Source: a virus
Taxonomy: Duplodnaviria; Heunggongvirae; Uroviricota; Caudoviricetes
Length of the DNA: 27,962 nt
Reading direction: 5' to 3' (one strand)
Virus record (IMG/VR): IMGVR_UViG_2627853678_000006
Location: 1 to 27,962 of that record
How positions within the stretch are numbered: position 1 is the first letter of the stretch; each line of letters starts with the position of its first letter. This document shows, one piece after another, positions 3,702 to 27,962 of this stretch. The notes under the pieces were generated by a model. The model made no database searches. It was not told the origin of the DNA and was given only the letters and a program-made list of their open reading frames with translations. The position numbers and the translations under genes are program-made.

Positions 3702-3747
3702 AGGGTTAGGTTGCACGGACCTTGAATCTATGGCATCAATACGTCCT

Positions 3748-3765
3748 TGTGTGGTAAATGACACA
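3748..3765 (-). promoter_or_regulatory. TGT-N12-ACA dyad, candidate Ogr/Delta-type late-promoter activator site for the V-W-J-I-H operon
   Basis: tgt gtggtaaatgac aca read directly, centred about 55 bp upstream of the V ATG. P2-family late promoters carry this dyad upstream of the start site. Confidence 0.4.
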
Positions 3766-3796
3766 AATACAATTCCAATCGAAGAAAGGTAAAAGA

Positions 3797-4327: not shown

Positions 4328-4332
4328 ACATT

Positions 4333-10286: not shown

Positions 10287-12051
10287 ATGAACACCACACT
10301 GACACCCGCAGATCTCGATCCCCGTCGGCAGGCCATGCTGCTGTACTTTCAGGGATACCGCGTCGCCCGCATTGCTGAAATGCTGGGCGAGAAAGTTGCA
10401 ACCGTTCATAGCTGGAAAAAACGCGACAAGTGGGGTGACTATGGGCCGCTGGATCAGATGCAGCTCACCACCGCCGCACGCTACTGCCAGCTCATTATGA
10501 AGGAGCACAAAGAAGGGAAAGATTTCAAAGAGATTGACCTGCTGGCGCGCCAGTCGGAGCGCCACGCGCGCATCGGCAAGTTTAACAATGGCGGCAACGA
10601 AGCCGACTTAAACCCTAACGTCGCCAACCGCAACAAAGGCCCGCGCCGTCAGCCGGAAAAGAATGTTTTCACCGATGAACAGATTGAGAAGCTGGAAGAA
10701 ATCTTCCATTCCTCCATGTTCAACTACCAGCGCCACTGGTGGGAAGCCGGAAAAACCAACCGCATCCGCAACCTGCTGAAATCACGCCAGATCGGCGCGA
10801 CCTTTTACTTTGCCCGTGAAGCCCTGATTGACGCTCTGCTTACCGGACGTAACCAGATTTTCCTTTCCGCCAGTAAGGCACAGGCCCACGTCTTTAAGCA
10901 GTACATCATCGACTTCGCCAAAGAAGTCGAGGTGGAGCTGAAAGGCGATCCGATGGTGCTTCCTAACGGGGCCACGCTTTACTTCCTCGGCACCAATGCC
11001 CGCACGGCCCAGAGTTACCACGGCAACCTGTATCTGGATGAATATTTCTGGATACCGAAATTCCAGGAGCTGCGCAAAGTGGCTTCCGGTATGGCTATTC
11101 ACAAAAAATGGCGACAAACCTATTTTTCCACGCCATCCAGTCTGACACACAGTGCTTATCCGTTCTGGTCCGGTGCGCTGTTCAACCGTGGGCGCAACAA
11201 AGCCGATAAGGTGGACATCGACCTGTCCCACAGAAATCTGGCCCCCGGCCTGCTGTGCGCAGACGGGCAATACCGCCAGATAGTCACCGTGGAAGATGCG
11301 GTGCGCGGCGGCTGTAACCTGTTCGACCTTGACCAGTTGCGCATGGAGTACAGCCCGGACGAATACCAGAACCTGCTGATGTGCGAGTTTGTGGACGATC
11401 TCGCGTCCGTGTTCCCTCTCAGCGAGCTGCAGGCGTGCATGGTAGACAGCTGGGAAATCTGGACCGACTTTCATGCACTGGCGCTGCGCCCGTTTGGCTG
11501 GCGCGAAGTGTGGATCGGTTATGACCCGGCAAAAGGTACGCAAAACGGCGACAGCGCCGGATGCGTGGTGGTGGCACCGCCAGCCGTGCCGGGTGGTAAG
11601 TTCCGCATTCTTGAGCGTCACCAGTGGCGCGGGATGGACTTCCGCGCCCAGCTGACGCCATCAAAAAACTTACCGAGCAGTACAACGTGACTTATATCGG
11701 TATCGACTCAACCGGCGTTGGTCACGGGGTTTACGAGAACGTGAAAGCGTTCTTTCCTGCCGTCAGGGAGTTTGTCTACAACCCCAACGTTAAAAACGCC
11801 TGGTACTCAAGGCCTACGACATTATCAGCCACCGCCGTCTGGAGTTTGACGCCGGGCACACCGACATTGCGCAGTCATTTATGGCAATCCGTCGCGCAAC
11901 CACCGCCAGTGGCAACCGCCCAACCTATGAAGCCAGCCGCAGCGAAGAAGCCAGCCACGCCGATCTGGCCTGGGCAACGATGCACGCACTGTTTAACGAA
12001 CCGCTGCAGGGCGAGTCCGCCAATACCAGCAATATTGTGGAGATTTTTTGA
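10287..12051 (+). pseudogene. P: Terminase large subunit (ATPase) P, interrupted as sequenced by two -1 frameshifts
   Basis: Frame 1 (10287..~11650) ends ...RILERHQWRGMDFRAQ. Frame 2 continues ADAIKKLTEQYNVTYIGIDSTGVGHGVYENVKAFFPAVREFVYNPNVK (ORF 11624..). Frame 3 continues RLVLKAYDIISHRRLEFDAGHTDIAQSFMAIRR...NEPLQGESANTSNIVEIF to the stop at 12049-12051. Junctions near 11648-11652 and 11796-11798 each lack one base. Restored length is about 588 aa (P2 gpP about 590). Confidence 0.85.
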
Positions 12052-13079
12052 TGGGAAAGAGTAAGAAAAACCGCACTGCGGCGACGAATCAGATCCAGCA
12101 TAAAAACCAGACTACAGCCGAAGCATTCAGCTTCGGCGATCCCGTTCCTATTCTGGACCGCCGAGAATTACTGGACTATGTGGAATGCGTACAGATGGAC
12201 CGTTGGTATGAGCCGCCCGTCAGCTTTGACGGACTGGCGCGCACCTTCCGCGCTGCCGTGCATCACAGTTCCCCGATTGCAGTAAAGTGCAACATTCTGA
12301 CCAGTACCTATATCCCTCATCCTCTGCTCAGCCAGCAAGCTTTTTCGCGTTTTGTGCAGGACTATCTGGTATTTGGCAACGCCTATCTGGAGAAACGCAC
12401 GAACCGCTTCGGTGAAGTGATCGCCCTTGAACCTGCGCTGGCAAAATACACCCGACGCGGATTAGACCTGGATACCTACTGGTTTGTGCAATACGGTATG
12501 ACAACCCAGCCGTATCAGTTCACGAAAGGCAGCATTTTTCATCTGATGGAACCGGATATTAATCAGGAGATCTACGGCCTGCCCGGTTATCTTTCTGCCA
12601 TTCCGTCAGCCCTGCTCAACGAGTCCGCCACGCTGTTCCGTCGCAAGTATTACATTAACGGCAGTCATGCGGGCTTTATCATGTACATGACCGATGCCGC
12701 GCAAAACCAGGAGGATGTGAACAACCTCCGCAATGCGATGAAAAGCGCCAAAGGGCCGGGCAACTTCCGCAACCTGTTTATGTACTCACCTAACGGCAAA
12801 AAGGACGGGCTTCAGATTATCCCGTTATCAGAAGTCGCAGCGAAGGATGAGTTTCTGAATATCAAAAATGTTAGTCGCGATGACATGATGGCGGCACACC
12901 GCGTTCCACCGCAAATGATGGGGATTATGCCTAATAATGTCGGGGGATTTGGGGATGTGGAGAAGGCTAGTAAGGTTTTTGTGATAAATGAATTAATTCC
13001 TTTGCAAAAACGATTTAGAGAAATTAATGCATGGCTCGGGGAAAAACTTATAGAATTTTCTCCATATGAGCTTAACTAA
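12048..13079 (+). CDS. Q: Portal protein Q
   Basis: 343-aa ORF (P2 gpQ about 344 aa) overlapping the terminase stop (ATGA). Confidence 0.85.
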   Translation: MMGKSKKNRTAATNQIQHKNQTTAEAFSFGDPVPILDRRELLDYVECVQMDRWYEPPVSFDGLARTFRAAVHHSSPIAVKCNILTSTYIPHPLLSQQAFSRFVQDYLVFGNAYLEKRTNRFGEVIALEPALAKYTRRGLDLDTYWFVQYGMTTQPYQFTKGSIFHLMEPDINQEIYGLPGYLSAIPSALLNESATLFRRKYYINGSHAGFIMYMTDAAQNQEDVNNLRNAMKSAKGPGNFRNLFMYSPNGKKDGLQIIPLSEVAAKDEFLNIKNVSRDDMMAAHRVPPQMMGIMPNNVGGFGDVEKASKVFVINELIPLQKRFREINAWLGEKLIEFSPYELN

Positions 13080-13128: not shown

Positions 13129-15465
13129 TTACAAATATGTGTTGCTATGTAGAGATGTGTTTATTCCATCTTTTATCTCAATTTTTGACGAAGCATACTC
13201 ATCATTCGCACTATCATCTATATCAAACTCATCTTGTAGATGAAGTGACTCATTTAACGGTTTATAAAACTCACCCATCATCATTTTGTAATGGGCAGTA
13301 TGCTCACTACATTCAAATATCTTCTGAAAAACAATTAAATATTTTTGCACAGACTCCGTATCTAAATTCATATAAAGATCATCACCTGCAAAATGGGAAC
13401 CATCATTAATCCATGACACTAAAGATTTAAATATGATTTTTTCATCACCATAAAAATGACACTCAAGCTTCCTAATATCCATCCCACCTAATATCTTAAA
13501 GTAATTCTCCAAAATCCTTCGCATTGTATTTTGTATAGTATTATTATTAATGTCTGTTCTTCTCAATTCGCACCAGAGCAAATCATAAGACGTTTTTATT
13601 GGGTTTGATTCGCACTTTTCAAGATATGAAACCTTCCCTTTTTTCCTTACAATCCAAAAAGTCTCCTCTTTCATTGCTTGATTACCGGATCTTTTGGTAT
13701 TAAAAGTCAACTCTTTATGAAAATAAATATTATGAGTAAGGAATATAATTTGCTTAATATTTCCTTCATCCTTACGAACATCCTCCATTAAATCTTTAAT
13801 CAACGAACTTACAATAAACAGAATATCACTATCTAAACTTGAAATTGGATCATCAAATACTACAACACGATCATCTAAAACACCTGATGCATTATCACTC
13901 CCTCTAACAAGGCTATAAAAGTACAAAAAAGTGATAAATGTCTTTTCTCCCTCACTAAGGGTTGTACGAGCATTATCTCCACTATCTCTTACTATCATAT
14001 AATGCTTTTTATCTTCGGAGGGTTTTAAGTAAAAATTTTTGAAGCCATAAGAGTCCAGAATCTTGTTAATTTTTGTAATAGTTGGAAGAGTACTGGTTTT
14101 ATTAGACTCAATTGCCTCAATAGCCGAAGTATTTAACATTAACTTCTTTTTGTCTTCTTCTATCCCAGATTTAAGTCCTTGTAACGTCCTATTAAATTTA
14201 TCAGATTTGCTACGGTAAGAAGTTATTTCAGACTTTAACTCCACCTTTACGATATATGCCCATATCTGCTTAGAAAGATTACTAGCCTCTACCTTTCTAT
14301 TACTATATATTTTGTTATTATTATCTATCAATAGATTTGAATCATTCAAAAAAGAAATAAAATCATCAACAACTTCACTTAAGTCACTAAAATGAACTGA
14401 TTCACTTAAAAAATTGCGTTTATTTTTTGCCAATTCAAAATTCTTGTTTAATTCAGATAATACTATCTTAGCCTTATCCTCAAACACTTCATAATTTATG
14501 AATGGAGATTTAATCGCCCTTATATCATCTATCGCCTTCAAGATATTATTAAGTTGATATTCATATTGTAAAACCAATGCATCGATTTCTCTTTTTTTTA
14601 ACTCATATGTTTTATCAAAATATGATGAAAGATTATCAAATATATTATCATTTACATCCTGCTGGCAGAATGGGCACTTGGGATTAGATTTGCTGAAATA
14701 TGTTAAACCCTCCTTAACCCAATCACTGTTATTGAGCATTGTAATTAAGTCTGAAACACTAACGTCTTTTTTCCCTAGAATACGCTCACTCCAAATTTCC
14801 CTACTTAAAATATCATCTATCCCATTGAAGGATGGAATTGTAATTGATACATGTGATGTCAATTCAGTAGAAAAAACAATTTTTGCTTTCTCAATTAACT
14901 CTGCTATTGAGCAAACTTCTGATGTATTATTTTCATACTCAGCCAACACTCTGGCTTTAAATTTTTCACTACTATTCCTTAATCCCTCAAAAGCCTTTGA
15001 GAACACATTGTCATGTTTTACTTTTTGCTTCCAACATGAATCTTTAAAAGATTTTTCATGGTCTTCGATTTTTTTAATAACGCCTAATTCATTATCACCA
15101 CCATCTATTAACTTTCCCTTTGCTATAATAGATTCCATTAGCTTATTTTTTTCTTCTTTAAGAGATATTAGTTTCTCTTCATCCTCCTTAAGATCGCTAC
15201 CAAGGGTAAATACACCTTTAATTTTATCTTGACTAAAATTTCTTTCAACAAAATCTTTATTATATACGTAGCTTATTAAAGATATATTATTTTTCCATTT
15301 AATCGGACATGTTGGATATTGTTCAGGGTCATTAATAATTTTACTTATAGTTGTTTTACCTGCACCATTAGCTCCATATAAATAGTTAAATTTAGAAAGT
15401 CCATGTAAAAGCTGCGTAGGGCCATTATATGAGCCTACCTTGTCAATAACTACCTCTTCAATCAT
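13129..15465 (-). CDS. RloC/PrrC-like anticodon-nuclease-type protein: ABC ATPase with coiled-coil zinc hook and C-terminal nuclease-like domain (function inferred)
   Basis: 778-aa AT-rich ORF with GAGG Shine-Dalgarno. Walker A GANGAGKTT at the N-terminus, CPFC zinc-hook motif in a long Lys/Glu-rich predicted coiled coil, LSEGEK signature, Walker B VVVFDDPISSLD, H-loop FLTHN, then about 200 aa containing R-x3-E (RRILENYF) and downstream His residues reminiscent of the PrrC catalytic triad. Confidence 0.55.
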   Translation of the reverse strand: MIEEVVIDKVGSYNGPTQLLHGLSKFNYLYGANGAGKTTISKIINDPEQYPTCPIKWKNNISLISYVYNKDFVERNFSQDKIKGVFTLGSDLKEDEEKLISLKEEKNKLMESIIAKGKLIDGGDNELGVIKKIEDHEKSFKDSCWKQKVKHDNVFSKAFEGLRNSSEKFKARVLAEYENNTSEVCSIAELIEKAKIVFSTELTSHVSITIPSFNGIDDILSREIWSERILGKKDVSVSDLITMLNNSDWVKEGLTYFSKSNPKCPFCQQDVNDNIFDNLSSYFDKTYELKKREIDALVLQYEYQLNNILKAIDDIRAIKSPFINYEVFEDKAKIVLSELNKNFELAKNKRNFLSESVHFSDLSEVVDDFISFLNDSNLLIDNNNKIYSNRKVEASNLSKQIWAYIVKVELKSEITSYRSKSDKFNRTLQGLKSGIEEDKKKLMLNTSAIEAIESNKTSTLPTITKINKILDSYGFKNFYLKPSEDKKHYMIVRDSGDNARTTLSEGEKTFITFLYFYSLVRGSDNASGVLDDRVVVFDDPISSLDSDILFIVSSLIKDLMEDVRKDEGNIKQIIFLTHNIYFHKELTFNTKRSGNQAMKEETFWIVRKKGKVSYLEKCESNPIKTSYDLLWCELRRTDINNNTIQNTMRRILENYFKILGGMDIRKLECHFYGDEKIIFKSLVSWINDGSHFAGDDLYMNLDTESVQKYLIVFQKIFECSEHTAHYKMMMGEFYKPLNESLHLQDEFDIDDSANDEYASSKIEIKDGINTSLHSNTYL

Positions 15466-15597
15466 CCTCTAATCCTCAAAAAACAGATTAATCCTATCAA
15501 ATCAATGATAATAGAAGACATTACTTACCTAATTACAAGGTGATCATTTATACAGCTGTAAATAAATCAGGCTAATCATCTATTTGTCATAACGCGC

Positions 15598-15626
15598 GCT
15601 CGTATCCCCGCCACGCCTGCCCGCTT
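15598..15626. other. Putative cos (cohesive end) site
   Basis: Reverse complement of 15601-15625 reads agcgggcaggcGTGGCGGGGAtacg, resembling the G-rich P2/186 cohesive-end sequence as I recall it (GGCGxGGCGGGGAAAGCA). Located between Q and gene A as expected. Confidence 0.4.
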
Positions 15627-15705
15627 TGTGTAGTGGTTTTCATGCACCTGCATGACATAAGTAAAAGCCCGCCAGAACTGGCGGGACTGAGCAAAAACGA
15701 TCCTT

Positions 15706-15735
15706 TTGCGATCATTCATTTTCATGCGCTATAGT
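15706..15735 (+). promoter_or_regulatory. Candidate sigma70 promoter for the three-gene operon
   Basis: TTGCGA (15706-15711), 18-bp spacer, TATAGT (15730-15735); about 100 bp upstream of an AGGAG Shine-Dalgarno and ATG at 15836. Confidence 0.35.
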
Positions 15736-15835
15736 CATGCAACAAACGCATACGAACCATATGGTTAGATTACTCATCAAGTCAGATGGATTTTCAGGCA
15801 GATTGCCACAGCAATTGTAAAGGAGCGAGATTGAA

Positions 15836-16837
15836 ATGGGTGGAGAGACTTCGGCTATACAACGAGTCGCGGGTAAGATTTCTGATGATATTTTCTCAGT
15901 GTTCAAATGGGATCGTGCCGCTAGAGCGGACATGAATTGGGATTGTTGCCAAGAGGCTCATTCCAAGAAAACACATCCAAGCGATGTTGTATTTTTCTAC
16001 ATAGATCCATATGAGGAGGAAATGGTCTATCTCAACACAGACCTCAAAAGCTATGCAGAAGGTACTATTGGGAAAAAAATAGTCGAGGGAGCTTTAACAT
16101 CGCTTGCTTTAGCTACCGAATGTGCAAATGTCAGTGAAGAATGGCGATTGAAATATGTTCATGATGATTCTTTAGGTTATAACGTAAGAGGGTTATTATT
16201 CTTATATAACCATGATAATTTATATGATAAAGACTTCTATGAGAATATTACAAAAAAATTAGATCACTCATCTATAAATTGCCCTCCAAACATCAAACTA
16301 CATTTGCTTGACCCTTATAAAATATCAGATTTGATAAACATATCTTCTGACATAACTAAGTTAATTGGTTCAGGAAAACTTCCTCAACCTGATAAGTTCA
16401 CATATTATTATCCAGATCTTTCCCTAACAAGAATAAAGCACCCTATTAATCAGACAACACCTGCAACAATTGAATTATTAACATCACCATACATTATAAT
16501 AAAGCATGAGGCTTTCAGTTGGCTCAGGGATAAAAACCCTGAGGGATATGTTGTTTATTACAATCAACCGGGGGATTCAGTAGACGAATTCGTTTACTTC
16601 TTTGATATGTTATCAACTTATCAGATATTAACCGAAGGTAAACCAATCGTATTACGCCATTGTCACATTCACCCAAATGAAAATGCCATTCATCATTTTG
16701 AAAGAGCGAAAAAGAAATACAGCACAGACTGGCTCTTAGGCGAGGATGAAAGACTTTTTCTTAAAATTGACTTCGACAAGACAGACAAAATTGTTGTTGA
16801 ATATAATCTTGAACAAATCGGCATGGAGCAACGATAA
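15836..16837 (+). CDS. Hypothetical protein, first gene of three-gene operon; possible PD-(D/E)xK-like motif
   Basis: 333-aa AT-rich ORF with AGGAG Shine-Dalgarno. Contains VVFFYID-x11-TDLK and a His-rich stretch RHCHIHPNENAIHH. Stop overlaps the next start (TAATG). Confidence 0.75.
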   Translation: MGGETSAIQRVAGKISDDIFSVFKWDRAARADMNWDCCQEAHSKKTHPSDVVFFYIDPYEEEMVYLNTDLKSYAEGTIGKKIVEGALTSLALATECANVSEEWRLKYVHDDSLGYNVRGLLFLYNHDNLYDKDFYENITKKLDHSSINCPPNIKLHLLDPYKISDLINISSDITKLIGSGKLPQPDKFTYYYPDLSLTRIKHPINQTTPATIELLTSPYIIIKHEAFSWLRDKNPEGYVVYYNQPGDSVDEFVYFFDMLSTYQILTEGKPIVLRHCHIHPNENAIHHFERAKKKYSTDWLLGEDERLFLKIDFDKTDKIVVEYNLEQIGMEQR

Positions 16838-17916
16838 TGGCTAAAAAACTATATTTCGCAACTGATAAAAATATTTATGATGCATTACATCATAAAAGGA
16901 TAACCGCTGCAAAGTTGCATGAATTATTGTTGAATCGAGGTGTGTTTTTATCACCAGAACTCGACAAGGAAATACTAATCGAGGAAATATCCAAACTTCC
17001 TCACGGATTTAATGAATTAGAACACATAAAAAAACTGGTCAAAACATATGACCCAAGGGAAAGCACTACTAGTGTGAGCTTCCAAACCTCAACAAATCAG
17101 GCCGAATTAAAAAGTGCTGCTGAAGCACTAAAAAAAACATGCTCCCCTAGTAAAGGTCAAAGCCTGAATATTGTAGCTAAAAAAGATGGCTCGCTTACAG
17201 TAGAATACAAATATGAAGAAATAGACCTGTCTAAAACTGCATTACGTCAGATCGACAAGCGGAATGTTATAATAGAACTTCGCCCTGGAGCTGACAAAGT
17301 TGAAGTACGTATGCCTCAAAACCCCGAGGCAAAAAAAGTTATTGAGAGCTTGCAAAACGAGCTATCTAAAATCAAGTCCGAACCTATCGAGCGCTTCGAA
17401 ATATCATTACTAGCAATAACTGATCCTACATTGCGAAGTCAGTTTTTTCAGGAATTAATGAATGGTCTACGCGGTTATGAGACTGATGACGTAACAAAAG
17501 TCGAATTAAATCGCAGTACTGATGCTAGTGAGGATGAAGACAAGGAAGAAACTATTGATACCGGATTTGTTAAGAAAGCCGTCCTTAATGGTGAAGGGGT
17601 AAATAGTTCAGCTATATTTTCTCAACTACATGAGAAAGGTTATTATATCGGGCGTATTGCATGGTCTTCAAAGCCGACAAGTGGAATTGGAGACAGAATC
17701 AACGTCGAAGCATTTTTCAAAGACTCAGAAAAATGCTGTGACTTTGCCTATCAAATTAAAGGTATAAACAATCAAAAAGAAGACGGTTTCAATGTAACCA
17801 TTCGCGCGGCAACAGCACAAGAGAAAAAACATATTAGTGAATTAATTGAGTCCGCCGCTGAAAATGCCTATAATATAATAATAGGATCAGAGGTGAACGA
17901 AGATGAAAAAGGTTAA
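16837..17916 (+). CDS. Hypothetical protein, second gene of three-gene operon
   Basis: 359-aa ORF, translationally coupled on both sides; acidic central linker (STDASEDEDKEE). No motif I can name. Confidence 0.75.
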   Translation: MAKKLYFATDKNIYDALHHKRITAAKLHELLLNRGVFLSPELDKEILIEEISKLPHGFNELEHIKKLVKTYDPRESTTSVSFQTSTNQAELKSAAEALKKTCSPSKGQSLNIVAKKDGSLTVEYKYEEIDLSKTALRQIDKRNVIIELRPGADKVEVRMPQNPEAKKVIESLQNELSKIKSEPIERFEISLLAITDPTLRSQFFQELMNGLRGYETDDVTKVELNRSTDASEDEDKEETIDTGFVKKAVLNGEGVNSSAIFSQLHEKGYYIGRIAWSSKPTSGIGDRINVEAFFKDSEKCCDFAYQIKGINNQKEDGFNVTIRAATAQEKKHISELIESAAENAYNIIIGSEVNEDEKG

Positions 17917-18586
17917 ATGGCTTAAGTTAAACATACGGCTTGAGTTTGAAACAGCCGTTAGACGTCTTTCTCTTGATTCTTTTACAGAGGATAAAGGGAA
18001 AGGGTTCATTTTTGATAAAATACGCCATGATTTTGCAAATGGTCGCTTTGTCGAGCGTATTGTTTATCATGATAAAATATTAAGCTTTGACGGAAGCGAA
18101 ACTACCGTTGAAAGAATCGAATATCGCACCACAAATTTTAGCGTGGCTTTAGACTCTCTTCCTGTAATGCAGATTACTAACCCACCCAGAACTTTAAAGC
18201 CTTTTTCGCAGGCTTTGGTAAAAAATCTTGGCTTAGGTGTTAGTTTGGAAGAAATTGACATAAACCCTATAGACTGGCTTAATGAAATATCTTCAAGTGT
18301 AAATATCAATTTAACACAACTTGATATTTCAAGGGTTAGAGTTTCTGATTACGCCACAGCTAAAATGCAAATAATTGGCAGCAATGATCTTAGGAAGTAT
18401 TATAAAGAAGAATTAGAGGGTAAAAAAATAAGAATTGACAGGCTTGTTTGCTCTGTTAATTCATTAGAATATTCCGGTAAGCTCAAGATCACCAATAGCG
18501 GCCTTGCTTATATTGATGTTAGAAATGAGAATGAGTTTACGAAAATCGTTTTTGATACGTTAAAAAAAGTCACCCTTCAATCATAG
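17903..18586 (+). CDS. Hypothetical protein, third gene of three-gene operon
   Basis: 227-aa ORF overlapping the previous gene by 14 nt; followed by a strong hairpin. Confidence 0.75.
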   Translation: MKKVKWLKLNIRLEFETAVRRLSLDSFTEDKGKGFIFDKIRHDFANGRFVERIVYHDKILSFDGSETTVERIEYRTTNFSVALDSLPVMQITNPPRTLKPFSQALVKNLGLGVSLEEIDINPIDWLNEISSSVNINLTQLDISRVRVSDYATAKMQIIGSNDLRKYYKEELEGKKIRIDRLVCSVNSLEYSGKLKITNSGLAYIDVRNENEFTKIVFDTLKKVTLQS

Positions 18587-18642: not shown

Positions 18643-18673
18643 GTAGGCGTCAGAATCAAGTTCTGACGCCTAC
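18643..18673 (+). terminator. Stem-loop terminator after the three-gene operon
   Basis: Perfect 13-bp inverted repeat gtaggcgtcagaa / ttctgacgcctac with 5-nt loop, followed by aatgtttctt. Lies between the convergent ends of the operon and the DinI-like gene. Confidence 0.55.
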
Positions 18674-18681
18674 AATGTTTC

Positions 18682-18915
18682 TTAATGCAGCCAGCTATCG
18701 TCCTCCCACACCTTCTGCATAATTTTCATCACTTGTTTTCTTTCTTCGTCCAGTTGCAGTCCGGTCAGTTCCACACCGTTAGAGCTACCTTTGCGGATAC
18801 GAATTACCGTTTTGGGATACAGGGGGCGCAGATTGCGGTAAAGCTCGGATTCAAGGGCGTCCAGGGTAGACTGGCTAATTTTCTGCTCTTTATCGATCAT
18901 TATTTCAATGCGCAT
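18682..18915 (-). CDS. DinI-family protein
   Basis: Start MRIEIMIDKEQ... at ATG 18913-18915 with GAGGTGA Shine-Dalgarno; about 77 aa. Resembles E. coli DinI (MRIEVTIAK...) in length and sequence. Confidence 0.7.
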   Translation of the reverse strand: MRIEIMIDKEQKISQSTLDALESELYRNLRPLYPKTVIRIRKGSSNGVELTGLQLDEERKQVMKIMQKVWEDDSWLH

Positions 18916-18925
18916 AAAAGTCACC

Positions 18926-19114
18926 TCAGCTGATGACATCCATTGAGCGGTTGTATTCGTGGCTTCTGATTTTTGCCATGAGTTCATCAGTCAATTCAGA
19001 AACCCACTGCAGAGCCAGCCCCTTCTCTTCATCACTACACTCACTAGCCGCTACAAGCTTAAGAAAAAAATCAATGCGCTGGAGCTTCAAAGACTCCAAA
19101 AAATAGTCCTGCAT
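18926..19114 (-). CDS. Small hypothetical protein, first gene of SOS-regulated pair; possibly a Tum-like antirepressor module
   Basis: 62-aa ORF from ATG 19112-19114 with AGGAGG Shine-Dalgarno. Its stop overlaps the Shine-Dalgarno of the DinI-like gene. LexA box lies just upstream. Confidence 0.5.
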   Translation of the reverse strand: MQDYFLESLKLQRIDFFLKLVAASECSDEEKGLALQWVSELTDELMAKIRSHEYNRSMDVIS

Positions 19115-19267: not shown

Positions 19268-21682
19268 TTAATACAGATCCCGCCACTTATCATCTTCCTG
19301 CAAACGCTGGTTCCGATAGAAGATACGCAGGCCTGCTCCTGACGGAATACTGCCGCCGCGAAGGAGTAAATCGACCTCTTTCTCGCTGCCATCAAATCCT
19401 CTGGACTTCAGTTCATAGACGAGCTGCTGTCGTTGATGGTCTGTAATTCGCTGTTTGTAGTCTCTACGCCGTTTCGGTTTCACCAGGCGTAACCTTGCAG
19501 CCAGTTCCCGGCGTTCTTTTTTGTTCATACTGTGCAGGTAATCGTGCAACTCCTTGTCATCCATACGGGTGATATCCGTTCTGGTATCCCCATCAGCTGA
19601 TTTGTCTTTCCCTTGTTGGTACAAATTTTCAGCAAGGGGACAGTTATTGCCACGAGTCCAAGGGGCGCAAGCGCCCTGGTCGGCTGCCGCCTCCTGAACG
19701 TCAACGGCCTTACGAACCATTTTCCATTTCATTGCATGAGTGCAGATCTTGCCCTGTACAATGGGTGACCAGATGCCATAAATACGAATACCGTGATCGC
19801 CATAAGCGGTCGGCTCTTCGTTAATTTCATAAGCTGTTCTGATAAGGTGATATTTGCGGGGAACCAGTACGCCGCCCTGCTTCATGATGTAGGTGGCAAA
19901 ACAGCCAGCATCAGCGGCAGCCAGGATGGCATCAAGGCGCGGGTTATCCAGTACCGGCGCACCTGCTTTTTTGTCACCCTGTTGCCTTGCCGCCTGACCA
20001 GCCAGCAATCGCAGTTCACGGTAAGCCTGACGCCCCGGAATGCCAAAGAAGCGGAATTGCTGAACACGATGCAGAGACGCCCAGGCATTAACGTATTCAG
20101 CGTTATCACGCAGAGATTTACCCGTTTCCTTGCTGATCTCGCCAGCCAGACCACGCCCGTCAATGTTCTTACTGATGTATTTCGCGATGTAGCTAGTCGG
20201 CGTTCCTTTGCGCGGGTTTATCAGCTCAGACTTAAAGCGTGGCCCCGTGTTATTACCCAGCTCCTCGCGGTCTTCACGGATAGCAAACTTACGCAACAAT
20301 GCAGTAATGGCGCGGCGGTCTTTTTTGCGCATGAAACACAACAGGTGCCAGTGAACTGTGCCGTCATGATGCGGCTCAGCCACCCGCACGCCATACCAGC
20401 GCAACCCGGCTTTGTGCATCGCCTTACGAAATGCAGCAAACATGCCGACCAGATAATCACTGCTTTGTCTTACCGTCGCATTTGTCCAGGTCGGGTTGGG
20501 CCTGCCGTTATTTAGCGTGGAATGGAAACGTGACGGACAGGTGATGGTGTAGAAAACGGCGCAGTCACCGCGCATTTCCGCGATAAGCTCCAGACCTTTA
20601 ACACAGGCCATCATCTCATTGCGGCGATGCGCAGGGTTGCTGCTGCTGGCGTTTACCACATCCTCCATGTCCAGCGTGTCGCCGTCTTCGTTCACCAGTT
20701 CATGAGAACGGAAAAACTCCAGCGACTTACGGCGCTGCTCACGTTTATGCATCACGGCTTCATAGCTGACATAGGGAGATGCTTTTTTGCTGACCAGGCA
20801 AACAGCACGCAACTGCTCTTCCCGCCATTCGCAACGCATCTTCCACAATTTCCGATACCACCAGTCGGCGCACAGCATACGCGCCAGCGACCCCGGAATG
20901 AGTTCATAGGGCACGGGTTTACGGCGGTTTCTTTTCCGGCGGAGTTGCTCAAACGCAGGCGGTATGACATCCAGTCGCAGGGTTTCCGCCGCCACCTTTT
21001 CCCATGTCTTGCGGATTTCTTCTGGCTTAACGTCATCGGTGGCATACAAATCGCCACAAGCGGCATCAAGGCACATGCTCATATGCGCAGCTACCAGGGT
21101 GGACAGGCGTTTCACCTGATCCTGACTCATTTCAGGCAGGATCAGCAGACCGTCCAGCCCTTCATGGCTTGCCATAAAGCGAAAAGAAGTGGATAGCTGA
21201 CTGTCGCGTACATGCTCCAGTCGTTCCAGACATGGCTTAATCGTCTCACGCAAATAGCGGGAATAAGCCTTTGGCCTGCCCAGGCTGCTGAAGTATTCAA
21301 TACGTTGCATCAGCGGCTTGCTGATATGGGAAGGCTGGGCGTTGACGTCCGCCAGAATGACCATATCCGGATTAAAACGCTGCTGCTCATGCGCCAGCTT
21401 TGCCCAACTAATGAGCTTATCCTGTTCCATTTCGCGCTGGACAGGATCACGGGATTCATTAAAGAAATAACGCTCCCAGACCTGATCACTCAGCGCCTCA
21501 CGGCGCAGCTGTTCCTGCTCGTTATCGGCAGCGTACAGAGTGATCAGGTTTGAAAGCGCAGAAACCGGCGCAACTTCCGCCGGGTCCAGATAAGGGTTAA
21601 TGGCCTTTTTCGGGCTGTTCCATGAGAATGCTGCGGCGACCTCGTTAAAGCCGCTGCAGTTGTTCATATCAGCATGGCTCAT
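19268..21682 (-). CDS. A: Replication initiation protein A (rolling-circle replication endonuclease)
   Basis: 804-aa ORF (P2 gpA about 761 aa), last gene of the early operon. Confidence 0.85.
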
Positions 21683-23424: not shown

Positions 23425-23649
23425 CTATCGTTCTTTGTTCTTACGGTAACGCTCAAGGGGAGATACATTTTTTCGTACCGTCTCTTTAACCTGCTCTCCC
23501 CGTAAAAACGTCCCATCCTTTAGCGTGAAAAAGTAACTGCCATCGCCCGACAACGACGGATAACAACAGAGCAAATCATCTTCAGGTACTGAATAACTCT
23601 CCCCTCTGTAACGAAACTGATAAACCACTTCACTTTCCGCTGCATACAT
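23425..23649 (-). CDS. Hypothetical small protein overlapping the 3' end of the CII-like ORF
   Basis: 74-aa ORF with GGAG Shine-Dalgarno 9 nt upstream of ATG 23649; overlaps the CII-like ORF by about 130 nt. Confidence 0.3.
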   Translation of the reverse strand: MYAAESEVVYQFRYRGESYSVPEDDLLCCYPSLSGDGSYFFTLKDGTFLRGEQVKETVRKNVSPLERYRKNKER

Positions 23650-24332
23650 TTTGACTTTCTCCGTTTCCTCGTGGTCAATTCAGACAGCAATTCATCTTGT
23701 GAATGACATGGATGCCAGCGTTTACCATCCTCACCCATGATCCAGCCGTGACCGTAGTGCATTGCCGGGCTTTGTTTTACCAGCAGCGATGCAAATGATG
23801 GTTCTTTCGTCAGCATAAGCACCTCACAGCAAACCGAATGAAGCACCGAGCCAGTCACGGTATCAACTGCACTCGCCATCGCAGGATTAGCCTGTAAACG
23901 GGCCTGCAATGAAACAGCCGCCAGCGCCATCAGTCGTGTTACAGAATTAATGCTGCTGATCGCATCGCGACGGCCTGCACTGGTTTTTACATCGCCAGAA
24001 ACCGCACCTGCAGCAACACGCCCGATCTCTGCGGTTGCACTCATGACGTAATGTGGCAGTCTCTCTTTTGCCACCTCATTTACCGGTATACATGGCAGGC
24101 AGTGAATCTGAGCCAGAAATCCATCAACCAGTGTTGGGTCTTCAGTGAGATCGGTTAACTGCCAGATATCTGACGCAGTAAGTTGGTGTGGTTGTTCCGG
24201 GTTGAGCTTGTTACGCAAGGTTTGAACGTTCATACCTGCGCGCTCTGCCAGCTTCGCCATGTTGTGTCGTAGGGCGAAGGCCCGGCAGGCTTCATTGAAA
24301 TGGGGATGTTTTGAAATGCGATAGTCAAACAT
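23520..24332 (-). CDS. cII: CII-like transcriptional regulator (186 CII family); C-terminal about 60 aa questionable
   Basis: N-terminal region (MFDYRISKHPHFNEACRAFALRHNMAKLAERAGMNVQTLRNKLNP...) resembles 186-type CII with HTH. At 270 aa the ORF is longer than I expect for this family and its tail is Cys/Arg-rich. Confidence 0.55.
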   Translation of the reverse strand: MFDYRISKHPHFNEACRAFALRHNMAKLAERAGMNVQTLRNKLNPEQPHQLTASDIWQLTDLTEDPTLVDGFLAQIHCLPCIPVNEVAKERLPHYVMSATAEIGRVAAGAVSGDVKTSAGRRDAISSINSVTRLMALAAVSLQARLQANPAMASAVDTVTGSVLHSVCCEVLMLTKEPSFASLLVKQSPAMHYGHGWIMGEDGKRWHPCHSQDELLSELTTRKRRKSKCMQRKVKWFISFVTEGRVIQYLKMICSVVIRRCRAMAVTFSR

Positions 24333-24705: not shown

Positions 24706-25275
24706 GTGACCATGAATTTGGAAAAAGGCGGTCGTGGGGCCATAGAGCGCATGGTTGAAGCCTATGGTTTCAAGACAAGACAAGCTTTGTGTGATCATTT
24801 GGGCATTTCTAAAAGCACCTTAGCCACGCGCTATATGCGTGATTCATTCCCGGCAGAATGGGTAATCCAATGTGCACTTGAAACCGGCACGTCGCTAGAG
24901 TGGCTAACTACTGGGCAAGGTTCAAAAGAAAGTTCACAAAAAGAAAACACAAAAGAGATCGAAAGGAAGATTTTATCAAGCGGAAAACTACTTCCTGATG
25001 GTTACTACATTTTCGACAACAACTTTTTGCCTGAAAAACTAAAAAAACCTTTTGTTGTGATCGATGGCGCATCAGAGTTTATCTGTGATTCGGATTATGA
25101 GGATGTACGTGATGGTAAGTGGATCGTTGATATTGATGGCGAGGTTGCTATCAGGAATCTGACAAGACTGCCGGGACGTCGTCTAAATGTCGATGGTGGC
25201 AGCAGTTCCTTTGAATGCAAAATAGATGAAATTGATATCATAGGAAAAATTAGAAGCGCGATCGTCAATTATTAA
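24706..25275 (+). CDS. cI: CI immunity repressor (186-type)
   Basis: 189-aa ORF (186 CI about 192 aa) with N-terminal HTH-like region (...[43 protein letters not shown]); divergent from apl and upstream of int. Confidence 0.75.
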
Positions 25276-25486: not shown

Positions 25487-26827
25487 TTGCTTCATATGAA
25501 TAATGATATGACTTTTGAAAACAGAGATGAGTATAATAGAAAAATCATTGCTGAAAAAATAATAAGCTTACTCGAGTCCCCCTTAAAAATATCCCCTATT
25601 GTTATCGATGGGGACTGGGGTACCGGTAAAACCGAATTTTCAAAAAAATTAGCGGCATTGATTGAAAAAAATGAATCTGGGCATAAAGTAGTATATATTG
25701 ATGCATTTACTGAAGATCATAATGATGCTCCCATACTTACTATAATGGCTGCAATAGTTGCATTATATCCAGAGAGTGAAAAGAAGGAATTAATATCAAA
25801 GGCATTACCAGCATTGAGATTTGGACTTAAAACTGTACTCAAAGCTGGCGCTGGGTGGATTTTAAAACAAAATGCAGATGATATTGCGGATGAATTCGAA
25901 GATGCTATTAAAGATGCGGCTAACTCAGCTATAGATGGTACTGTAGAAGCACTGCTTGATGATCATATTGAAGCAAAGAAACATTTGCTTGCTCTCAAGG
26001 AAGTACTTGCTGAACTAACTAGCGAAAATAAAATAACAATTATCATTGACGAACTTGACCGTTGTAAACCAAGCTTTGCCATCTCTATCATCGAAAATAT
26101 AAAACATGTTTTTGACACTGAAAATCTTAACTTCTTGTTAGTTGCTAACATCTCACAATTGAAAGCATCAATAAATCATATTTACGGTGCAGGTGTTGAC
26201 TCAGAAAGATATCTTGATAAATTTATAAAATTCACTTACAGCCTGCCAGTGACTTTCACTGAAAACAATTACGATAAAATTTTGGCTTCGAACTCTCATT
26301 TTAGAATGCTATGTAACGAGTCTGAAAGACTAAAAGAAATTGGAGAAAGTAGTATTCATATAGTTCAAAAATTTATCGAACTAAAAGGCTTGTCGCTACG
26401 GGAAGTTGAAACCTTATCAAGATATCTAGAAATTTATCAAATTTTATCTCAAAATGAAATCAGCAATAAATTTATACCAGGCTATTGCTGTTATCGAACC
26501 CTTGCAGTAATTCTTTATTCGTTTGGTCGTGAACTGGCCCTTAACTACGTAGAAGATAAAATAGATGCACAATTAATAATTAATTTCTTCGGTGTTAATA
26601 GACTCCCATATCAGACAGATCAATATAACATCAACATCTACTATTATGCATTATTTGGTATAACTTATAAATATATGCCAGAAGGTTCTCCTTTACTTCC
26701 TTCTGAAAACGATGAAAAAAACAGATGGGCTGAAATAAGTGATTATCATATTTTAAAAGGAAATGCAGGTGTAGAAGACCCTGTTAGAATATTCAAAAAC
26801 ACCTTAAAAGTTTTCTTGCTCCAATGA
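25487..26827 (+). CDS. KAP-family P-loop NTPase
   Basis: 446-aa AT-rich ORF. Walker A in KAP form (IVIDGDWGTGKTEFSKKLA) and Walker B IIIDELDRCKP, the DELDRC hallmark of KAP NTPases. Starts 2 nt after the small peptide gene. Confidence 0.7.
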   Translation: MLHMNNDMTFENRDEYNRKIIAEKIISLLESPLKISPIVIDGDWGTGKTEFSKKLAALIEKNESGHKVVYIDAFTEDHNDAPILTIMAAIVALYPESEKKELISKALPALRFGLKTVLKAGAGWILKQNADDIADEFEDAIKDAANSAIDGTVEALLDDHIEAKKHLLALKEVLAELTSENKITIIIDELDRCKPSFAISIIENIKHVFDTENLNFLLVANISQLKASINHIYGAGVDSERYLDKFIKFTYSLPVTFTENNYDKILASNSHFRMLCNESERLKEIGESSIHIVQKFIELKGLSLREVETLSRYLEIYQILSQNEISNKFIPGYCCYRTLAVILYSFGRELALNYVEDKIDAQLIINFFGVNRLPYQTDQYNINIYYYALFGITYKYMPEGSPLLPSENDEKNRWAEISDYHILKGNAGVEDPVRIFKNTLKVFLLQ

Positions 26828-26909: not shown

Positions 26910-27962
26910 ATGGCAGTACGAAAACTCACCACAGGAAAATGGCTGTGCGAATGTTATCCCGCCGGACGTAGTGGACGTCGTGTGCGTAAACAATTCGCCA
27001 CCAAAGGCGAAGCTCTGGCTTTTGAGCGTCACACGATGGAAGAAACCGAAGCAAAGCCTTGGCTAGGTGAATCAGTGGATCGTCGAACACTGAAAGACGT
27101 GGTTGAGCTATGGTTCAAATTACATGGTAAATCTCTGACTGCTGGGCAGCATGTCTATGACAAATTGCTGCTGATGGTTAACGCTCTGGGCAATCCTCTT
27201 GCAACCGATCTCACCTCTAAAATGTTTGCCCACTATCGAGATAAACGCCTGACAGGTGAGATCTACTTCAGCGAGAAATGGAAGAAAGGAGCCAGCCCGG
27301 TCACCATTAACCTGGAGCAAAGCTATCTAAGTAGTGTTTTTAGCGAACTATCCCGCCTGGGCGAATGGTCGTATCCAAACCCACTGGAGAACATGCGAAA
27401 ATTCACCATCGCAGAAAAAGAGATGGCATGGCTTACCCATGAGCAGATTGTTGAACTGCTGGCTGATTGCAAACGTCAGGACCCAATTCTGGCACTGGTA
27501 GTCAAGATATGCTTAAGCACAGGCGCACGCTGGCGAGAAGCAATAAACCTTACCCGATCACAGGTGACTAAATACCGAATTACCTTTGTAAGAACGAAGG
27601 GGAAGAAAAACAGAAGCATCCCTATCAGTAAAGAGCTTTATGAAGAGATCATGGCGCTTGATGGGTTCAATTTCTTCACAGACTGCTATTTTCAATTTTT
27701 ATCCGTGATGGAAAAAACGTCAATCGTGCTCCCTCGCGGTCAACTGACACACGTTCTGCGCCATACGTTTGCGGCACATTTCATGATGTCGGGTGGAAAT
27801 ATCCTTGCTTTGCAAAAAATCCTCGGACATCACGATATAAAAATGACTATGCGTTACGCTCATCTGGCACCGGATCATCTGGAAACGGCGCTCCGTTTCA
27901 ATCCTCTGGCAACGCTGCCAAGTGGCGACAAAGTGGCGGCAGCGGTTGGCATTACCCCGTAA
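26910..27962 (+). CDS. int: Tyrosine integrase (P2/186 family)
   Basis: 350-aa ORF with tyrosine-recombinase motifs (ARWREAINL, HVLRHTFA, MRYAHL). Stop codon is the last three bases of the window, so any att site lies outside. Confidence 0.85.
   Translation: MAVRKLTTGKWLCECYPAGRSGRRVRKQFATKGEALAFERHTMEETEAKPWLGESVDRRTLKDVVELWFKLHGKSLTAGQHVYDKLLLMVNALGNPLATDLTSKMFAHYRDKRLTGEIYFSEKWKKGASPVTINLEQSYLSSVFSELSRLGEWSYPNPLENMRKFTIAEKEMAWLTHEQIVELLADCKRQDPILALVVKICLSTGARWREAINLTRSQVTKYRITFVRTKGKKNRSIPISKELYEEIMALDGFNFFTDCYFQFLSVMEKTSIVLPRGQLTHVLRHTFAAHFMMSGGNILALQKILGHHDIKMTMRYAHLAPDHLETALRFNPLATLPSGDKVAAAVGITP

What the first reader, a model, noticed from the sequence alone, without database searches (positions are those of the whole stretch)
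15836..18586. Translationally coupled three-gene operon of unrecognised proteins in the cos-to-A defence hotspot
Three AT-rich ORFs (333, 359 and 227 aa) overlap by 1 nt (TAATG) and 14 nt. They have their own promoter-like element, a strong Shine-Dalgarno and a dedicated 13-bp-stem terminator. They sit between cos and the SOS/DinI module next to gene A, where P2 carries tin/old and where P2-like prophages are known to swap anti-phage systems. I cannot assign any of the three to a family I know; the first has a tentative PD-(D/E)xK-like pattern (VVFFYID-x11-TDLK) and a His cluster. Tight coupling implies a multi-subunit unit. This is my best candidate for an undescribed defence or abortive-infection system.
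Basis: partly seen in the sequence, partly recalled or inferred. Interest (0 to 1): 0.85.

Follow-up and report, generated by a model that had tools for sequence, protein, structure and literature searches.

The report
Known 3HP anti-phage system in P2-like prophage
The three overlapping genes are real, but they are the already published and tested "3HP" anti-phage system of P2-like prophages; its mechanism is unpublished, and my analysis suggests a DNA-cutting enzyme teamed with two DNA-encircling, RdgC-like proteins, distantly related to the GAPS4 system.

Summary
Three co-directional ORFs (333, 359 and 227 aa) overlap by 1 nt and 14 nt. They have Shine-Dalgarno sites and end at a 14-bp hairpin, in an AT-rich island between portal/cos and DinI/gpA.

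The cassette is not undescribed. All three proteins are 100% identical to construct pFR109 ("hp + hp + hp", E. coli E1114) of Rousset et al. 2022, which protected against phage P1. PADLOC models Hp1, Hp2 and Hp3 match end to end. This is the 3HP system (called Rst_3HP in survey papers).

New inferences about mechanism:
- Hp1 is a remote homologue of GAPS4a, a PD-(D/E)xK nuclease (hhalign 96%). The catalytic Asp is in register (D50), and D69-x-K71 is invariant.
- Hp2 is a probable, weakly supported relative of GAPS4b.
- The three genes co-occur in order in 77 of 77 complete loci across several phyla. Two-gene GAPS4 loci have no Hp3.

Likely mechanism (inferred): an Hp2/Hp3 RdgC-like DNA-binding module licenses the Hp1 nuclease. 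No paper I could search links 3HP to GAPS4 or RdgC.

Verdict: already known system, with a modestly interesting mechanistic lead.

The parts
15706..15735 (+). Promoter-like element TTGCGA-18-TATAGT (weak; not shown to be functional)
   Evidence: It matches 9 of 12 positions, and such sites are no more frequent than in shuffles. It lies in cos-proximal backbone shared with prophages that carry other cargo; that match ends at about window 15741. The region was included in the native-promoter clone pFR109.
15820..15825 (+). Shine-Dalgarno AAGGAG for Hp1, 10 nt before the ATG
   Evidence: Read directly from the sequence.
15836..16837 (+). Hp1, 333 aa (38.7 kDa, pI 5.4): PD-(D/E)xK nuclease, the predicted effector; remote homologue of GAPS4a
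   Evidence: PADLOC Hp1 at 1e-239, full length. 100% identical to the first protein of pFR109. Homologues carry Pfam PF26115 PDDEXK_GAPS4. PGAP names WP_000508501.1 a 'PD-(D/E)XK nuclease domain-containing protein'. hhalign against GAPS4a gives 96.4%, E = 1.4e-9, 248 columns.
15974..16048 (+). Codons for the catalytic motif H47-P48-S49-D50 ... D69-L70-K71 of Hp1
   Evidence: E4, H42, H47, P48, D50, D69 and K71 are invariant in 47 sequences and at least 90% conserved in 197. D50 aligns with the D49 (RiKo) and D59 (MAVP-R) residues of GAPS4a, whose Ala substitutions abolish defence.
16837..17916 (+). Hp2, 359 aa (40.4 kDa, pI 5.5): N-terminal helical domain (about aa 10-68, Pfam GAPS4b_N in homologues) plus an RdgC-like body (about aa 77-349)
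17890..17896 (+). Shine-Dalgarno GAGGTGA for Hp3, inside the 3' end of Hp2 (14-nt gene overlap)
   Evidence: Read directly from the sequence.
17903..18586 (+). Hp3, 227 aa (26.1 kDa, pI 9.0): stand-alone RdgC-like fold; the component that two-gene GAPS4 lacks
18643..18673 (+). Intrinsic-terminator-like hairpin (14-bp stem, 3-nt loop) followed by AATGTTTCTT
   Evidence: z = -4.1. It lies between the Hp3 stop and the convergent dinI stop at 18682. The pFR109 reverse primer anneals just beyond it, at 18674-18693.

Best explanation
**Identity (shown).** This is the 3HP anti-phage system (called Rst_3HP in survey papers; PADLOC Hp1/Hp2/Hp3). It is a cargo module of the gpQ/cos-to-gpA hotspot of P2/186-like prophages. 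It has already been cloned and shown to protect E. coli against phage P1.

**Mechanism (inferred, not shown).** 3HP is a three-component, distant sister of the GAPS4 system.
- Hp1 is the effector, a PD-(D/E)xK DNase with catalytic residues D50, D69 and K71.
- Hp2 carries an N-terminal helical domain. In GAPS4b that domain is the docking site for the nuclease. The rest of Hp2 is an RdgC-like body.
- Hp3 is a second, basic, RdgC-like protein.
- RdgC-fold proteins dimerise side by side into rings or horseshoes that bind dsDNA through a basic pore. I therefore propose that Hp2 and Hp3 form a heteromeric RdgC-like DNA-binding module. It would be the counterpart of the GAPS4b homodimer ring and analogous to the Chl4-Iml3 heterodimer.
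- This module would detect an abnormal DNA state during infection, such as free ends or breaks. It would then license Hp1 to degrade DNA, stopping phage replication, probably at the cost of the infected cell.

The three subunits are made in fixed proportion through translational coupling.
For: **Identity**
- PADLOC gives full-length hits at 1e-239, 3e-248 and 2e-157.
- The proteins are 100% identical to pFR109 'hp + hp + hp' from E. coli E1114.
- The paper states that this system protects against P1.
- Table S5A lists WP_000508501 + WP_001085272 + WP_000756244 at a P2 hotspot.
- The hotspot is defined as lying between gpA and gpQ, next to cos. In the window, portal (12048-13079), DinI (18682-18987) and gpA (19268-21682) flank the cassette.

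**Hp1 as nuclease and GAPS4a relative**
- PF26115 is recorded on the homologues, and PGAP names the protein accordingly.
- The Hp1-family HMM scores 43 bits against RiKo GAPS4a. hhalign gives 96.4%, E = 1.4e-9, 248 columns.
- The invariant motif is in register with the mutagenised Asp.

**GAPS4 properties (from the paper)**
- GAPS4 is a 2:2 complex in which GAPS4b forms a ring and GAPS4a docks on its helical domain. [quoted passage not shown]

**Hp2 and Hp3 as RdgC-like**
- Phage RdgC-like proteins appear in BFVD.
- RdgC ring dimers bind DNA in a basic pore, and Iml3-Chl4 is a DNA-contacting heterodimer of the same fold.
- Hp3 has pI 9.0.

**Obligate three-gene unit**
- 77 of 77 loci with enough downstream sequence keep the order Hp1-Hp2-Hp3 across several phyla. 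Median gaps are -4 nt.
- All three genes are homologous in Vibrio and Delftia.
Against: - The mechanism is entirely inferred. There is no biochemical or genetic dissection of 3HP in anything I could find.
- Sequence support for Hp2 and GAPS4b is weak: NCBIfam 23.5 bits against a cutoff of 300, hhalign probability only 35%, and the Hp2-family HMM against RiKo GAPS4b is not significant.
- Hp1 does not hit the NCBIfam GapS4a model at all.
- I could not model Hp1 or any complex, so the Hp2-Hp3 heterodimer and the Hp1 docking site are conjecture.
- No natural Hp1-Hp2 or Hp2-Hp3 fusions were found to support contact.
- Phenotype differs. 3HP protected only against P1 out of 8 phages, and not against lambda or T7. 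GAPS4 blocks lambda-vir and reduces plating of many of 73 coliphages. The trigger may therefore be narrower, or different, from generic DNA breaks.
- The RdgC-like fold is also related to TBP-like and KA1 modules that do not bind DNA.
Confidence: 0.55

Rival explanations
1. Same parts, different trigger. The Hp1 nuclease is held inactive by Hp2/Hp3 and is released by a specific phage protein or a P1-specific process. The system would be a protein-sensing abortive-infection module rather than a GAPS4-type sensor of DNA breaks.
For: - The protection range is narrow, with only P1 of eight phages blocked. GAPS4 has a broad range.
- Hp3 evolves fast: only 4 positions are at least 90% conserved in 255 sequences, while Hp1 has dozens. 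That pattern is expected for a component that contacts variable phage factors.
- Lambda RexA also has the RdgC fold, and its DNA binding is not strictly required for exclusion.
Against: - Both accessory proteins have a DNA-binding fold, and Hp3 is basic.
- The closest characterised relative senses DNA damage, and no escape mutants could be isolated for it.
- No trigger is known for 3HP.
Confidence: 0.25
2. Recombination or circularisation block. Hp2/Hp3 act like RdgC itself. They coat or cap incoming linear phage DNA and antagonise RecA-type recombination, so the terminally redundant P1 genome cannot circularise. Hp1 then degrades the exposed linear DNA. Defence would be direct, not abortive.
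For: - RdgC is the top structural match for both proteins.
- RdgC inhibits RecA strand exchange and binds DNA non-specifically.
- The P1-only phenotype fits a phage that must recombine its ends after injection. That property of P1 is from my own knowledge, not a tool result.
Against: - There is no sequence membership in the RdgC family; the Pfam scans gave no RdgC hit.
- Lambda also enters as linear DNA and is not blocked.
- The GAPS4 relative degrades host DNA as well and is abortive.
Confidence: 0.12
3. The 778-aa AAA_13 ATPase gene on the opposite strand (13129-15465) is part of one larger four-gene system with the cassette.
For: - The gene lies adjacent to the cassette in the same AT-rich hotspot.
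- It matches a PADLOC candidate defence family, PDC-S06, at 1e-266.
Against: - The two modules assort independently. 3HP occurs with other left neighbours in L001 and L002.
- The AAA_13 gene occurs in 21 E. coli genomes; in the one inspected, other cargo follows it instead of 3HP.
- The conserved cos-proximal backbone separates the two modules.
- pFR109, from a strain whose upstream sequence is different, was active on its own.
- None of the 77 diverse loci needed such a gene to keep the three-gene unit.
Confidence: 0.03

Closest known systems
3HP system (Rst_3HP in survey papers; PADLOC Hp1/Hp2/Hp3), Rousset et al. 2022, Cell Host Microbe, PMC9122126
   Same: It is the same thing. The three proteins are 100% identical to construct pFR109. 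The locus is the same hotspot (gpQ/cos to gpA of P2-like prophages). The gene order and the downstream end of the cloned fragment also match.
   Different: Nothing differs in the cassette itself. In this window the slot on the other side of cos carries an AAA_13/PDC-S06 gene, which the source strain of pFR109 does not have at that place.
GAPS4 (GAPS4a + GAPS4b), Mahata et al., bioRxiv 10.1101/2025.09.07.674715
   Same: - The first gene encodes a homologous PD-(D/E)xK nuclease with the catalytic Asp in register.
- The second gene is similar in size, overlaps the first, and has the GAPS4b_N helical domain.
- Both systems are found on mobile elements.
- A ring-forming second subunit is predicted for GAPS4, and an RdgC ring fold is found for Hp2.
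   Different: - 3HP always has a third gene, Hp3 (77 of 77 loci). Two RiKo-type GAPS4 loci have only two genes and no Hp3-like ORF.
- The motif is HPxD...DxK rather than HGxD...SxK.
- Hp1 and Hp2 fall far below the curated NCBIfam GapS4a and GapS4b cutoffs, which the validated GAPS4 proteins pass.
- The known protection range is P1 only, against a broad range for GAPS4.
RdgC (E. coli recombination-associated protein, PDB 2OWL)
   Different: - Sequence identity is 9-10% and there is no Pfam RdgC hit.
- RdgC is a homodimeric housekeeping modulator of RecA, not a nuclease partner.
- Hp3 (227 aa) is shorter than RdgC (about 300 aa).
Lambda RexA (Rex exclusion system) and the Iml3-Chl4 / CENP-L-CENP-N kinetochore heterodimer
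   Same: - They share the RdgC-type fold.
- RexA shows that this fold is already used in a prophage-encoded exclusion system.
- Iml3-Chl4 shows that two different RdgC-fold proteins, one with extra N-terminal domains, can pair into a DNA-contacting horseshoe. That arrangement resembles the one proposed for Hp3-Hp2.
   Different: - RexA works with the membrane protein RexB, not with a nuclease.
- The kinetochore proteins are eukaryotic and functionally unrelated.
Shedu and Hachiman (PD-(D/E)xK effectors activated by DNA ends or aberrant DNA)
   Same: The logic is the same as cited by the GAPS4 authors: a PD-(D/E)xK nuclease is licensed by sensing DNA ends or damage.
   Different: Their sensor modules are unrelated. 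No homology was detected here, since PADLOC gave only the Hp1, Hp2 and Hp3 hits.

Membership tests
3HP / Rst_3HP (PADLOC Hp1, Hp2, Hp3) | Each of the three proteins matches its dedicated model over the full length | tested here: met
   PDLC03004 at 1e-239 (1-333 of 333), PDLC03005 at 3e-248 (1-359 of 359), PDLC03006 at 2e-157 (1-227 of 227).
3HP / Rst_3HP (PADLOC Hp1, Hp2, Hp3) | The three genes are adjacent, co-directional and in the order Hp1-Hp2-Hp3 | tested here: met
   The same order holds in 77 of 77 diverse loci.
3HP / Rst_3HP (PADLOC Hp1, Hp2, Hp3) | Identity with the experimentally validated construct | tested here: met
   An exact string comparison with the Table S2 sequences of pFR109 gave 333/333, 359/359 and 227/227 residues identical.
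3HP / Rst_3HP (PADLOC Hp1, Hp2, Hp3) | Confers phage resistance (P1) | not testable with these tools
   Reported for the identical proteins in PMC9122126. Not re-tested here.
GAPS4 | GAPS4a: a protein passing the curated NCBIfam antiphage_GapS4a model (NF047933, cutoff 270 bits) | tested here: not met
   Hp1 and the Vibrio homologue (L003 gene 1) gave no hit even at E <= 10. The validated RiKo and MAVP-R GAPS4a proteins score 291 and 279 bits.
GAPS4 | GAPS4a-type PD-(D/E)xK domain with the catalytic Asp of the HGxD...SxK motif | tested here: met
   Remote homology: hhalign 96.4%, E = 1.4e-9, HMM 43 bits, and PF26115 on the homologues. D50 aligns with D49/D59. The motif variant is HPSD...DLK.
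GAPS4 | GAPS4b: a protein passing NCBIfam antiphage_GapS4b (NF047934, cutoff 300 bits) | tested here: not met
   Hp2 scores 23.5 bits (E = 2e-5) and L003 gene 2 scores 24.7 bits. RiKo GAPS4b scores 324 bits. hhalign gives only 35% probability, although the alignment is co-linear over 254 columns.
GAPS4 | Two-gene (or fused a-b) architecture | tested here: not met
   There are three genes in 77 of 77 loci. The RiKo-type loci L088 and L089 have two genes and no Hp3-like ORF.
GAPS4 | 2:2 heterotetramer; DNase activated by DNA breaks; abortive outcome | not testable with these tools
   Known only for GAPS4 itself.
PD-(D/E)xK nuclease superfamily | Conserved D ... (D/E)xK catalytic residues | tested here: met
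   D50, D69 and K71 (plus E4, H42 and H47) are invariant in 47 sequences of 35-75% identity, and at least 90% conserved in 197.
PD-(D/E)xK nuclease superfamily | Restriction-endonuclease-like alpha-beta-beta-beta-alpha-beta core fold | not tested
The fold of Hp1 is inferred through its homology with GAPS4a.
RdgC family | RdgC three-dimensional fold | tested here: met
RdgC family | Sequence membership (Pfam RdgC model) | tested here: not met
   The Pfam scan of Hp2 and Hp3 gave no RdgC hit at E <= 0.1. A profile search of PDB sequences found no RdgC.
RdgC family | Ring-shaped dimer that binds dsDNA in a basic pore | not testable with these tools
   No multimer prediction was available. The only indirect support is the pI of 9.0 for Hp3.

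The most novel reading that the evidence does not exclude
3HP is a widespread three-subunit offshoot of GAPS4. The homodimeric GAPS4b ring has been replaced by a heterodimer of two unrelated-in-sequence RdgC-fold proteins: Hp2, which carries the nuclease-docking domain, and Hp3, which is basic and fast-evolving. The resulting asymmetric ring or horseshoe would load on DNA ends or breaks and switch on one PD-(D/E)xK nuclease. Together with lambda RexA, this would make the RdgC fold a recurrent DNA-state sensor of prophage-encoded exclusion systems. No paper I could search links 3HP to GAPS4 or to RdgC. A 2024 survey still lists Rst_3HP as unclassifiable.
Probability: 0.4. Interest if true: 0.55.

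Novelty: already known. Interest (0 to 1): 0.3.

Why it matters
As a discovery, the cassette adds nothing, because it is a catalogued and validated defence system. The useful outcome is a concrete and testable mechanism for a system that the literature still treats as three hypothetical proteins. It names specific catalytic residues to mutate (D50, D69, K71). It links 3HP to the DNA-break-sensing GAPS4 nuclease. It assigns a fold (RdgC-like) to both accessory subunits, including the extra subunit Hp3 that separates the two systems. If confirmed, this would join two separately named defence families. It would also add a second case, after RexA, of RdgC-fold proteins used by prophages to exclude other phages.

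Tried and rejected
- **Direct family hits.** The local Pfam copy gave none for Hp1 or Hp3 and only sub-threshold noise for Hp2. NCBIfam gave none for Hp1 or Hp3. The local Pfam copy evidently lacks PF26115 and PF26110, which appear only as precomputed annotations.
- **Solved structures by sequence.** Profile searches of PDB sequences with all three families found no relative.
- **Hp3 as a duplicate of the Hp2 body.** Rejected at sequence level: hhalign probability is 0.3% with both shallow and enriched profiles. The likeness is structural only.
- **Hp3 as a piece of GAPS4b.** No similarity was found.
- **A hidden third gene beside two-gene GAPS4.** None was found. Downstream genes are convergent and unrelated, and the Hp3 HMM finds nothing.
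- **The AAA_13 neighbour as part of the system.** Rejected because the two modules assort independently.
- **Natural fusions of Hp1-Hp2 or Hp2-Hp3.** None were found among the 77 loci, and the 150 best Hp3 relatives are no longer than 236 aa.
- **3HP-type loci in the GAPS4 paper's homologue list.** No hit was found for the three WP accessions or for six pre-2020 assemblies. The stored files are truncated, so this is inconclusive.
- **A dedicated promoter.** Not supported above chance.
- **AFDB fold search.** The library was unavailable.
- **Literature link between 3HP and GAPS4 or RdgC.** None was found.
Full report
**1. The observation**

The first junction is TAATG, a 1-nt overlap, with GGAG 8 nt upstream. 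The second junction is a 14-nt overlap, with GAGGTGA 6 nt before the ATG. AAGGAG lies 10 nt before the first ATG.

The cassette is AT-rich, with GC 0.32-0.39 against about 0.55 for the phage backbone. It ends at a hairpin with a 14-bp stem (18643-18673). The hairpin folds far better than shuffled sequence: -33.4 kcal/mol, z = -4.1.

The claimed promoter (TTGCGA-18-TATAGT, 15706-15735) matches 9 of 12 positions. Such matches are no more frequent in this region than in shuffles.

**2. Context**

The window is a P2/186-like prophage. Its identifiable genes are:
- terminase (10287-12064)
- portal (12048-13079)
- DinI (18682-18987, minus strand)
- replication protein gpA (19268-21682, minus strand)
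- CII/Fil, a 186-type CI repressor, and an integrase

The cassette therefore lies between gpQ/cos and gpA. Rousset et al. define this as the P2 defence hotspot.

Two cargo slots flank a conserved cos-proximal segment. The left slot holds a 778-aa AAA_13 ATPase gene (13129-15465, minus strand; PADLOC candidate PDC-S06, 1e-266). The right slot holds the cassette.

The two modules assort independently. The cassette occurs with other left neighbours in L001 and L002. The AAA_13 gene occurs beside portal in 21 E. coli genomes. In the one I inspected (L007), other cargo follows it instead of 3HP. That match ends at about window 15741.

**3. What it is**

PADLOC has dedicated models named Hp1, Hp2 and Hp3, and they match the three proteins end to end (1e-239, 3e-248, 2e-157).

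Rousset et al. [quoted passage not shown] Their Table S2 gives the construct as pFR109, 'hp + hp + hp', from E. coli E1114 (GCA_002109705), with its protein sequences.

An exact string comparison shows all three window proteins are 100% identical to it. The construct's reverse primer anneals at window 18674-18693, just past the hairpin. Their Table S5A lists the same RefSeq proteins (WP_000508501, WP_001085272, WP_000756244) at a P2 locus. These accessions also annotate the 99.9%-identical E. coli loci.

This is the 3HP system, which survey papers call Rst_3HP. The claim that it is a defence system is correct.

**4. What the literature says about mechanism**

I found no mechanistic information on 3HP. 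The ten papers that mention Rst_3HP appear to be genomic surveys. [quoted passage not shown]

**5. Hp1**

The word-index search found 185 relatives. The closest are from Enterobacterales. Beyond them is a large set of about 40%-identical proteins from Vibrio, Pseudoalteromonas, Delftia, Ralstonia and cyanobacteria. All carry the precomputed Pfam family PF26115 (PDDEXK_GAPS4). Recent PGAP annotation calls Hp1 a PD-(D/E)XK nuclease domain-containing protein.

GAPS4 is a two-gene system, GAPS4a plus GAPS4b. A 2025 preprint (10.1101/2025.09.07.674715) reports the following:
- It forms a 2:2 complex.
- GAPS4b is predicted to form a ring, and GAPS4a docks on the helical domain of GAPS4b.
- Its outcome is abortive.
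- Defence is lost on mutating the Asp of the HGxD...SxK motif.
- It is attenuated by phage HNH homing endonucleases.

I extracted the four validated protein sequences from the preprint's model files. The comparisons with Hp1 gave:
- BLASTP against RiKo GAPS4a aligns only the N-terminal 55 residues (E = 3e-7).
- An HMM of the Hp1 family scores 43 bits on RiKo GAPS4a. It aligns MAVP-R GAPS4a with the motifs in register.
- Profile-profile comparison gives 96.4% probability, E = 1.4e-9, over 248 columns. That covers most of the protein.

Hp1 D50 corresponds to the mutagenised D49 and D59. D69-L-K71 replaces the S-x-K of GAPS4a, so Hp1 has the canonical (D/E)xK. E4, H42, H47, P48, D50, D69 and K71 are invariant or nearly so across the family.

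**6. Hp2**

Sequence evidence for a relationship to GAPS4b is weak but consistent:
- NCBIfam antiphage_GapS4b scores 23.5 bits (E = 2e-5) over nearly the full length. The Vibrio homologue scores 24.7 bits.
- Pfam GAPS4b_N (PF26110) is recorded on several homologues.
- hhalign gives a co-linear 254-column alignment starting at residue 1, but only 35% probability.

**7. Hp3**

Hp3 has no Pfam, NCBIfam or PDB sequence match. An exhaustive profile search found 703 representatives at the 50% clustering level. The 150 best are nearly all 200-236 aa, so these are stand-alone proteins.

Hp3 is basic (pI 9.0), whereas Hp1 and Hp2 are acidic. Hp2 and Hp3 share no detectable sequence similarity.

According to the RexA structure paper:
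- RdgC homologues form ring-shaped dimers that bind DNA non-specifically in a basic central pore.
- Iml3-Chl4 is a heterodimer of two RdgC-fold proteins that contacts DNA.
- RexA, a prophage exclusion protein, shares the fold.

**8. The unit is three genes, and it is old**

In Vibrio fluvialis and Delftia the same three genes occur in the same order next to recombinase or integrase genes. All three are homologous to those in the window: Hp2 at 29-32% identity, and Hp3 at 24% identity with E = 3e-18.

A scan of one genome per species found 244 relatives of Hp1. The 80 loci returned span Proteobacteria, Cyanobacteria, Verrucomicrobiota, Bacteroidota, Desulfobacterota, Clostridia and a CPR lineage. 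Of those 80 loci, 77 have enough downstream sequence, and all 77 carry Hp2-like and Hp3-like genes in order.

The median gap is -4 nt at both junctions. No fusions were seen.

Two plasmid-borne RiKo-type GAPS4 loci, by contrast, have two overlapping genes followed by convergent unrelated genes, and no Hp3-like ORF.

**9. Membership against likeness**

The validated GAPS4 proteins pass the curated NCBIfam models: GapS4a at 279-291 bits (cutoff 270) and GapS4b at 324 bits (cutoff 300). Hp1 gives no hit, and Hp2 scores 23.5 bits. 3HP also fails the two-gene criterion.

I therefore do not file 3HP as a GAPS4 member. It is a distant sister lineage with an additional obligatory subunit. It is likely to work in a related way.

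**10. Proposed mechanism (inferred)**

Hp1 is the DNase effector. Hp2 offers the docking domain and one RdgC-like half. Hp3 supplies a second RdgC-like half. Together they would form a DNA-encircling or DNA-cradling sensor whose engagement with an abnormal DNA state licenses Hp1.

The main caveat concerns the phenotype. 3HP blocked only P1 of eight phages, and not lambda or T7, whereas GAPS4 has a broad range. The trigger may therefore be narrower. Hp3 evolves fast while Hp1 is highly conserved. That fits a sensor or a subunit that contacts phage factors.

I rate the identity as essentially certain. I rate the general architecture (nuclease plus RdgC-like DNA binders) at about 0.7, and the specific Hp2-Hp3 heteromer with break sensing at about 0.4.

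**11. Verdict**

This is an already known system. What remains of interest is the unpublished link between 3HP, GAPS4 and the RdgC fold. That link gives specific experiments to run.

Noticed in passing
window 13129-15465 (- strand): A 778-aa AAA_13 (PF13166) ATPase matches the PADLOC candidate defence family PDC-S06 (1e-266). It has weak similarity to PrrC, LmuB and AriA models. It occupies a second cargo slot on the portal side of cos, and it occurs in 21 complete E. coli genomes without 3HP.
   Followed up: partly
window 25487-26827 (+ strand): A 446-aa KAP-family P-loop NTPase (PF07693, 4e-51) sits in an AT-rich island (GC 0.31-0.35). It lies between the 186-type CI repressor (24706-25275) and the integrase (26910-27962). 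It may be another cargo or defence gene.
   Followed up: no
window about 3500-4500: A third AT-rich island (GC 0.35-0.45) lies within the late-gene region. It contains a 189-aa ORF (3758-4327) with no Pfam hit.
   Followed up: no
window 10287-12064: The terminase ATPase reading frame is split into two ORFs (10287-11690 and 11624-12064). Related prophages have a single 1767-nt gene (L001 2590-4356). This is either a frameshift, which would make the prophage defective, or a sequencing error.
   Followed up: no
window 23520-24332 (- strand): The CII (Phage_CP76) and Fil (Phage_186_Fil) domains lie in one 270-aa ORF. In related prophages they are two separate genes (L001 14124-14633 and 13820-14116).
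   Followed up: no
window about 15585-15741: The conserved cos-proximal backbone separates the two cargo slots. The only promoter-like element upstream of the cassette (15706-15735) lies in this shared segment. Whatever cargo occupies the slot may therefore be transcribed from backbone signals.
   Followed up: partly
NZ_CP024275.1 (hit H11); NZ_CP148585.1 and NZ_CP148400.1 (hits H4, H5): In one E. coli O6:H16 genome the 3HP cassette is interrupted by IS1. This could be a natural knockout, consistent with a cost of carriage. Two copies of the cassette lie on plasmid records of about 55 kb.
   Followed up: no
L088 (Ewingella plasmid pB61b) and L089 (Pantoea plasmid p5_CQ10), 4001-6077: RiKo-type two-gene GAPS4 is carried on plasmids. 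It sits directly downstream of recombinase or IS110 genes and near an ArdA anti-restriction gene.
   Followed up: partly
Hp3 family alignment (window 17903-18586 and 254 relatives): Evolutionary rates differ sharply within one operon. Hp1 keeps dozens of positions at least 90% conserved, while Hp3 keeps only G34, F35, G64 and F79. Within Enterobacterales, however, the Hp3 motif N93-PPRTLKPF-101 is invariant.
   Followed up: partly
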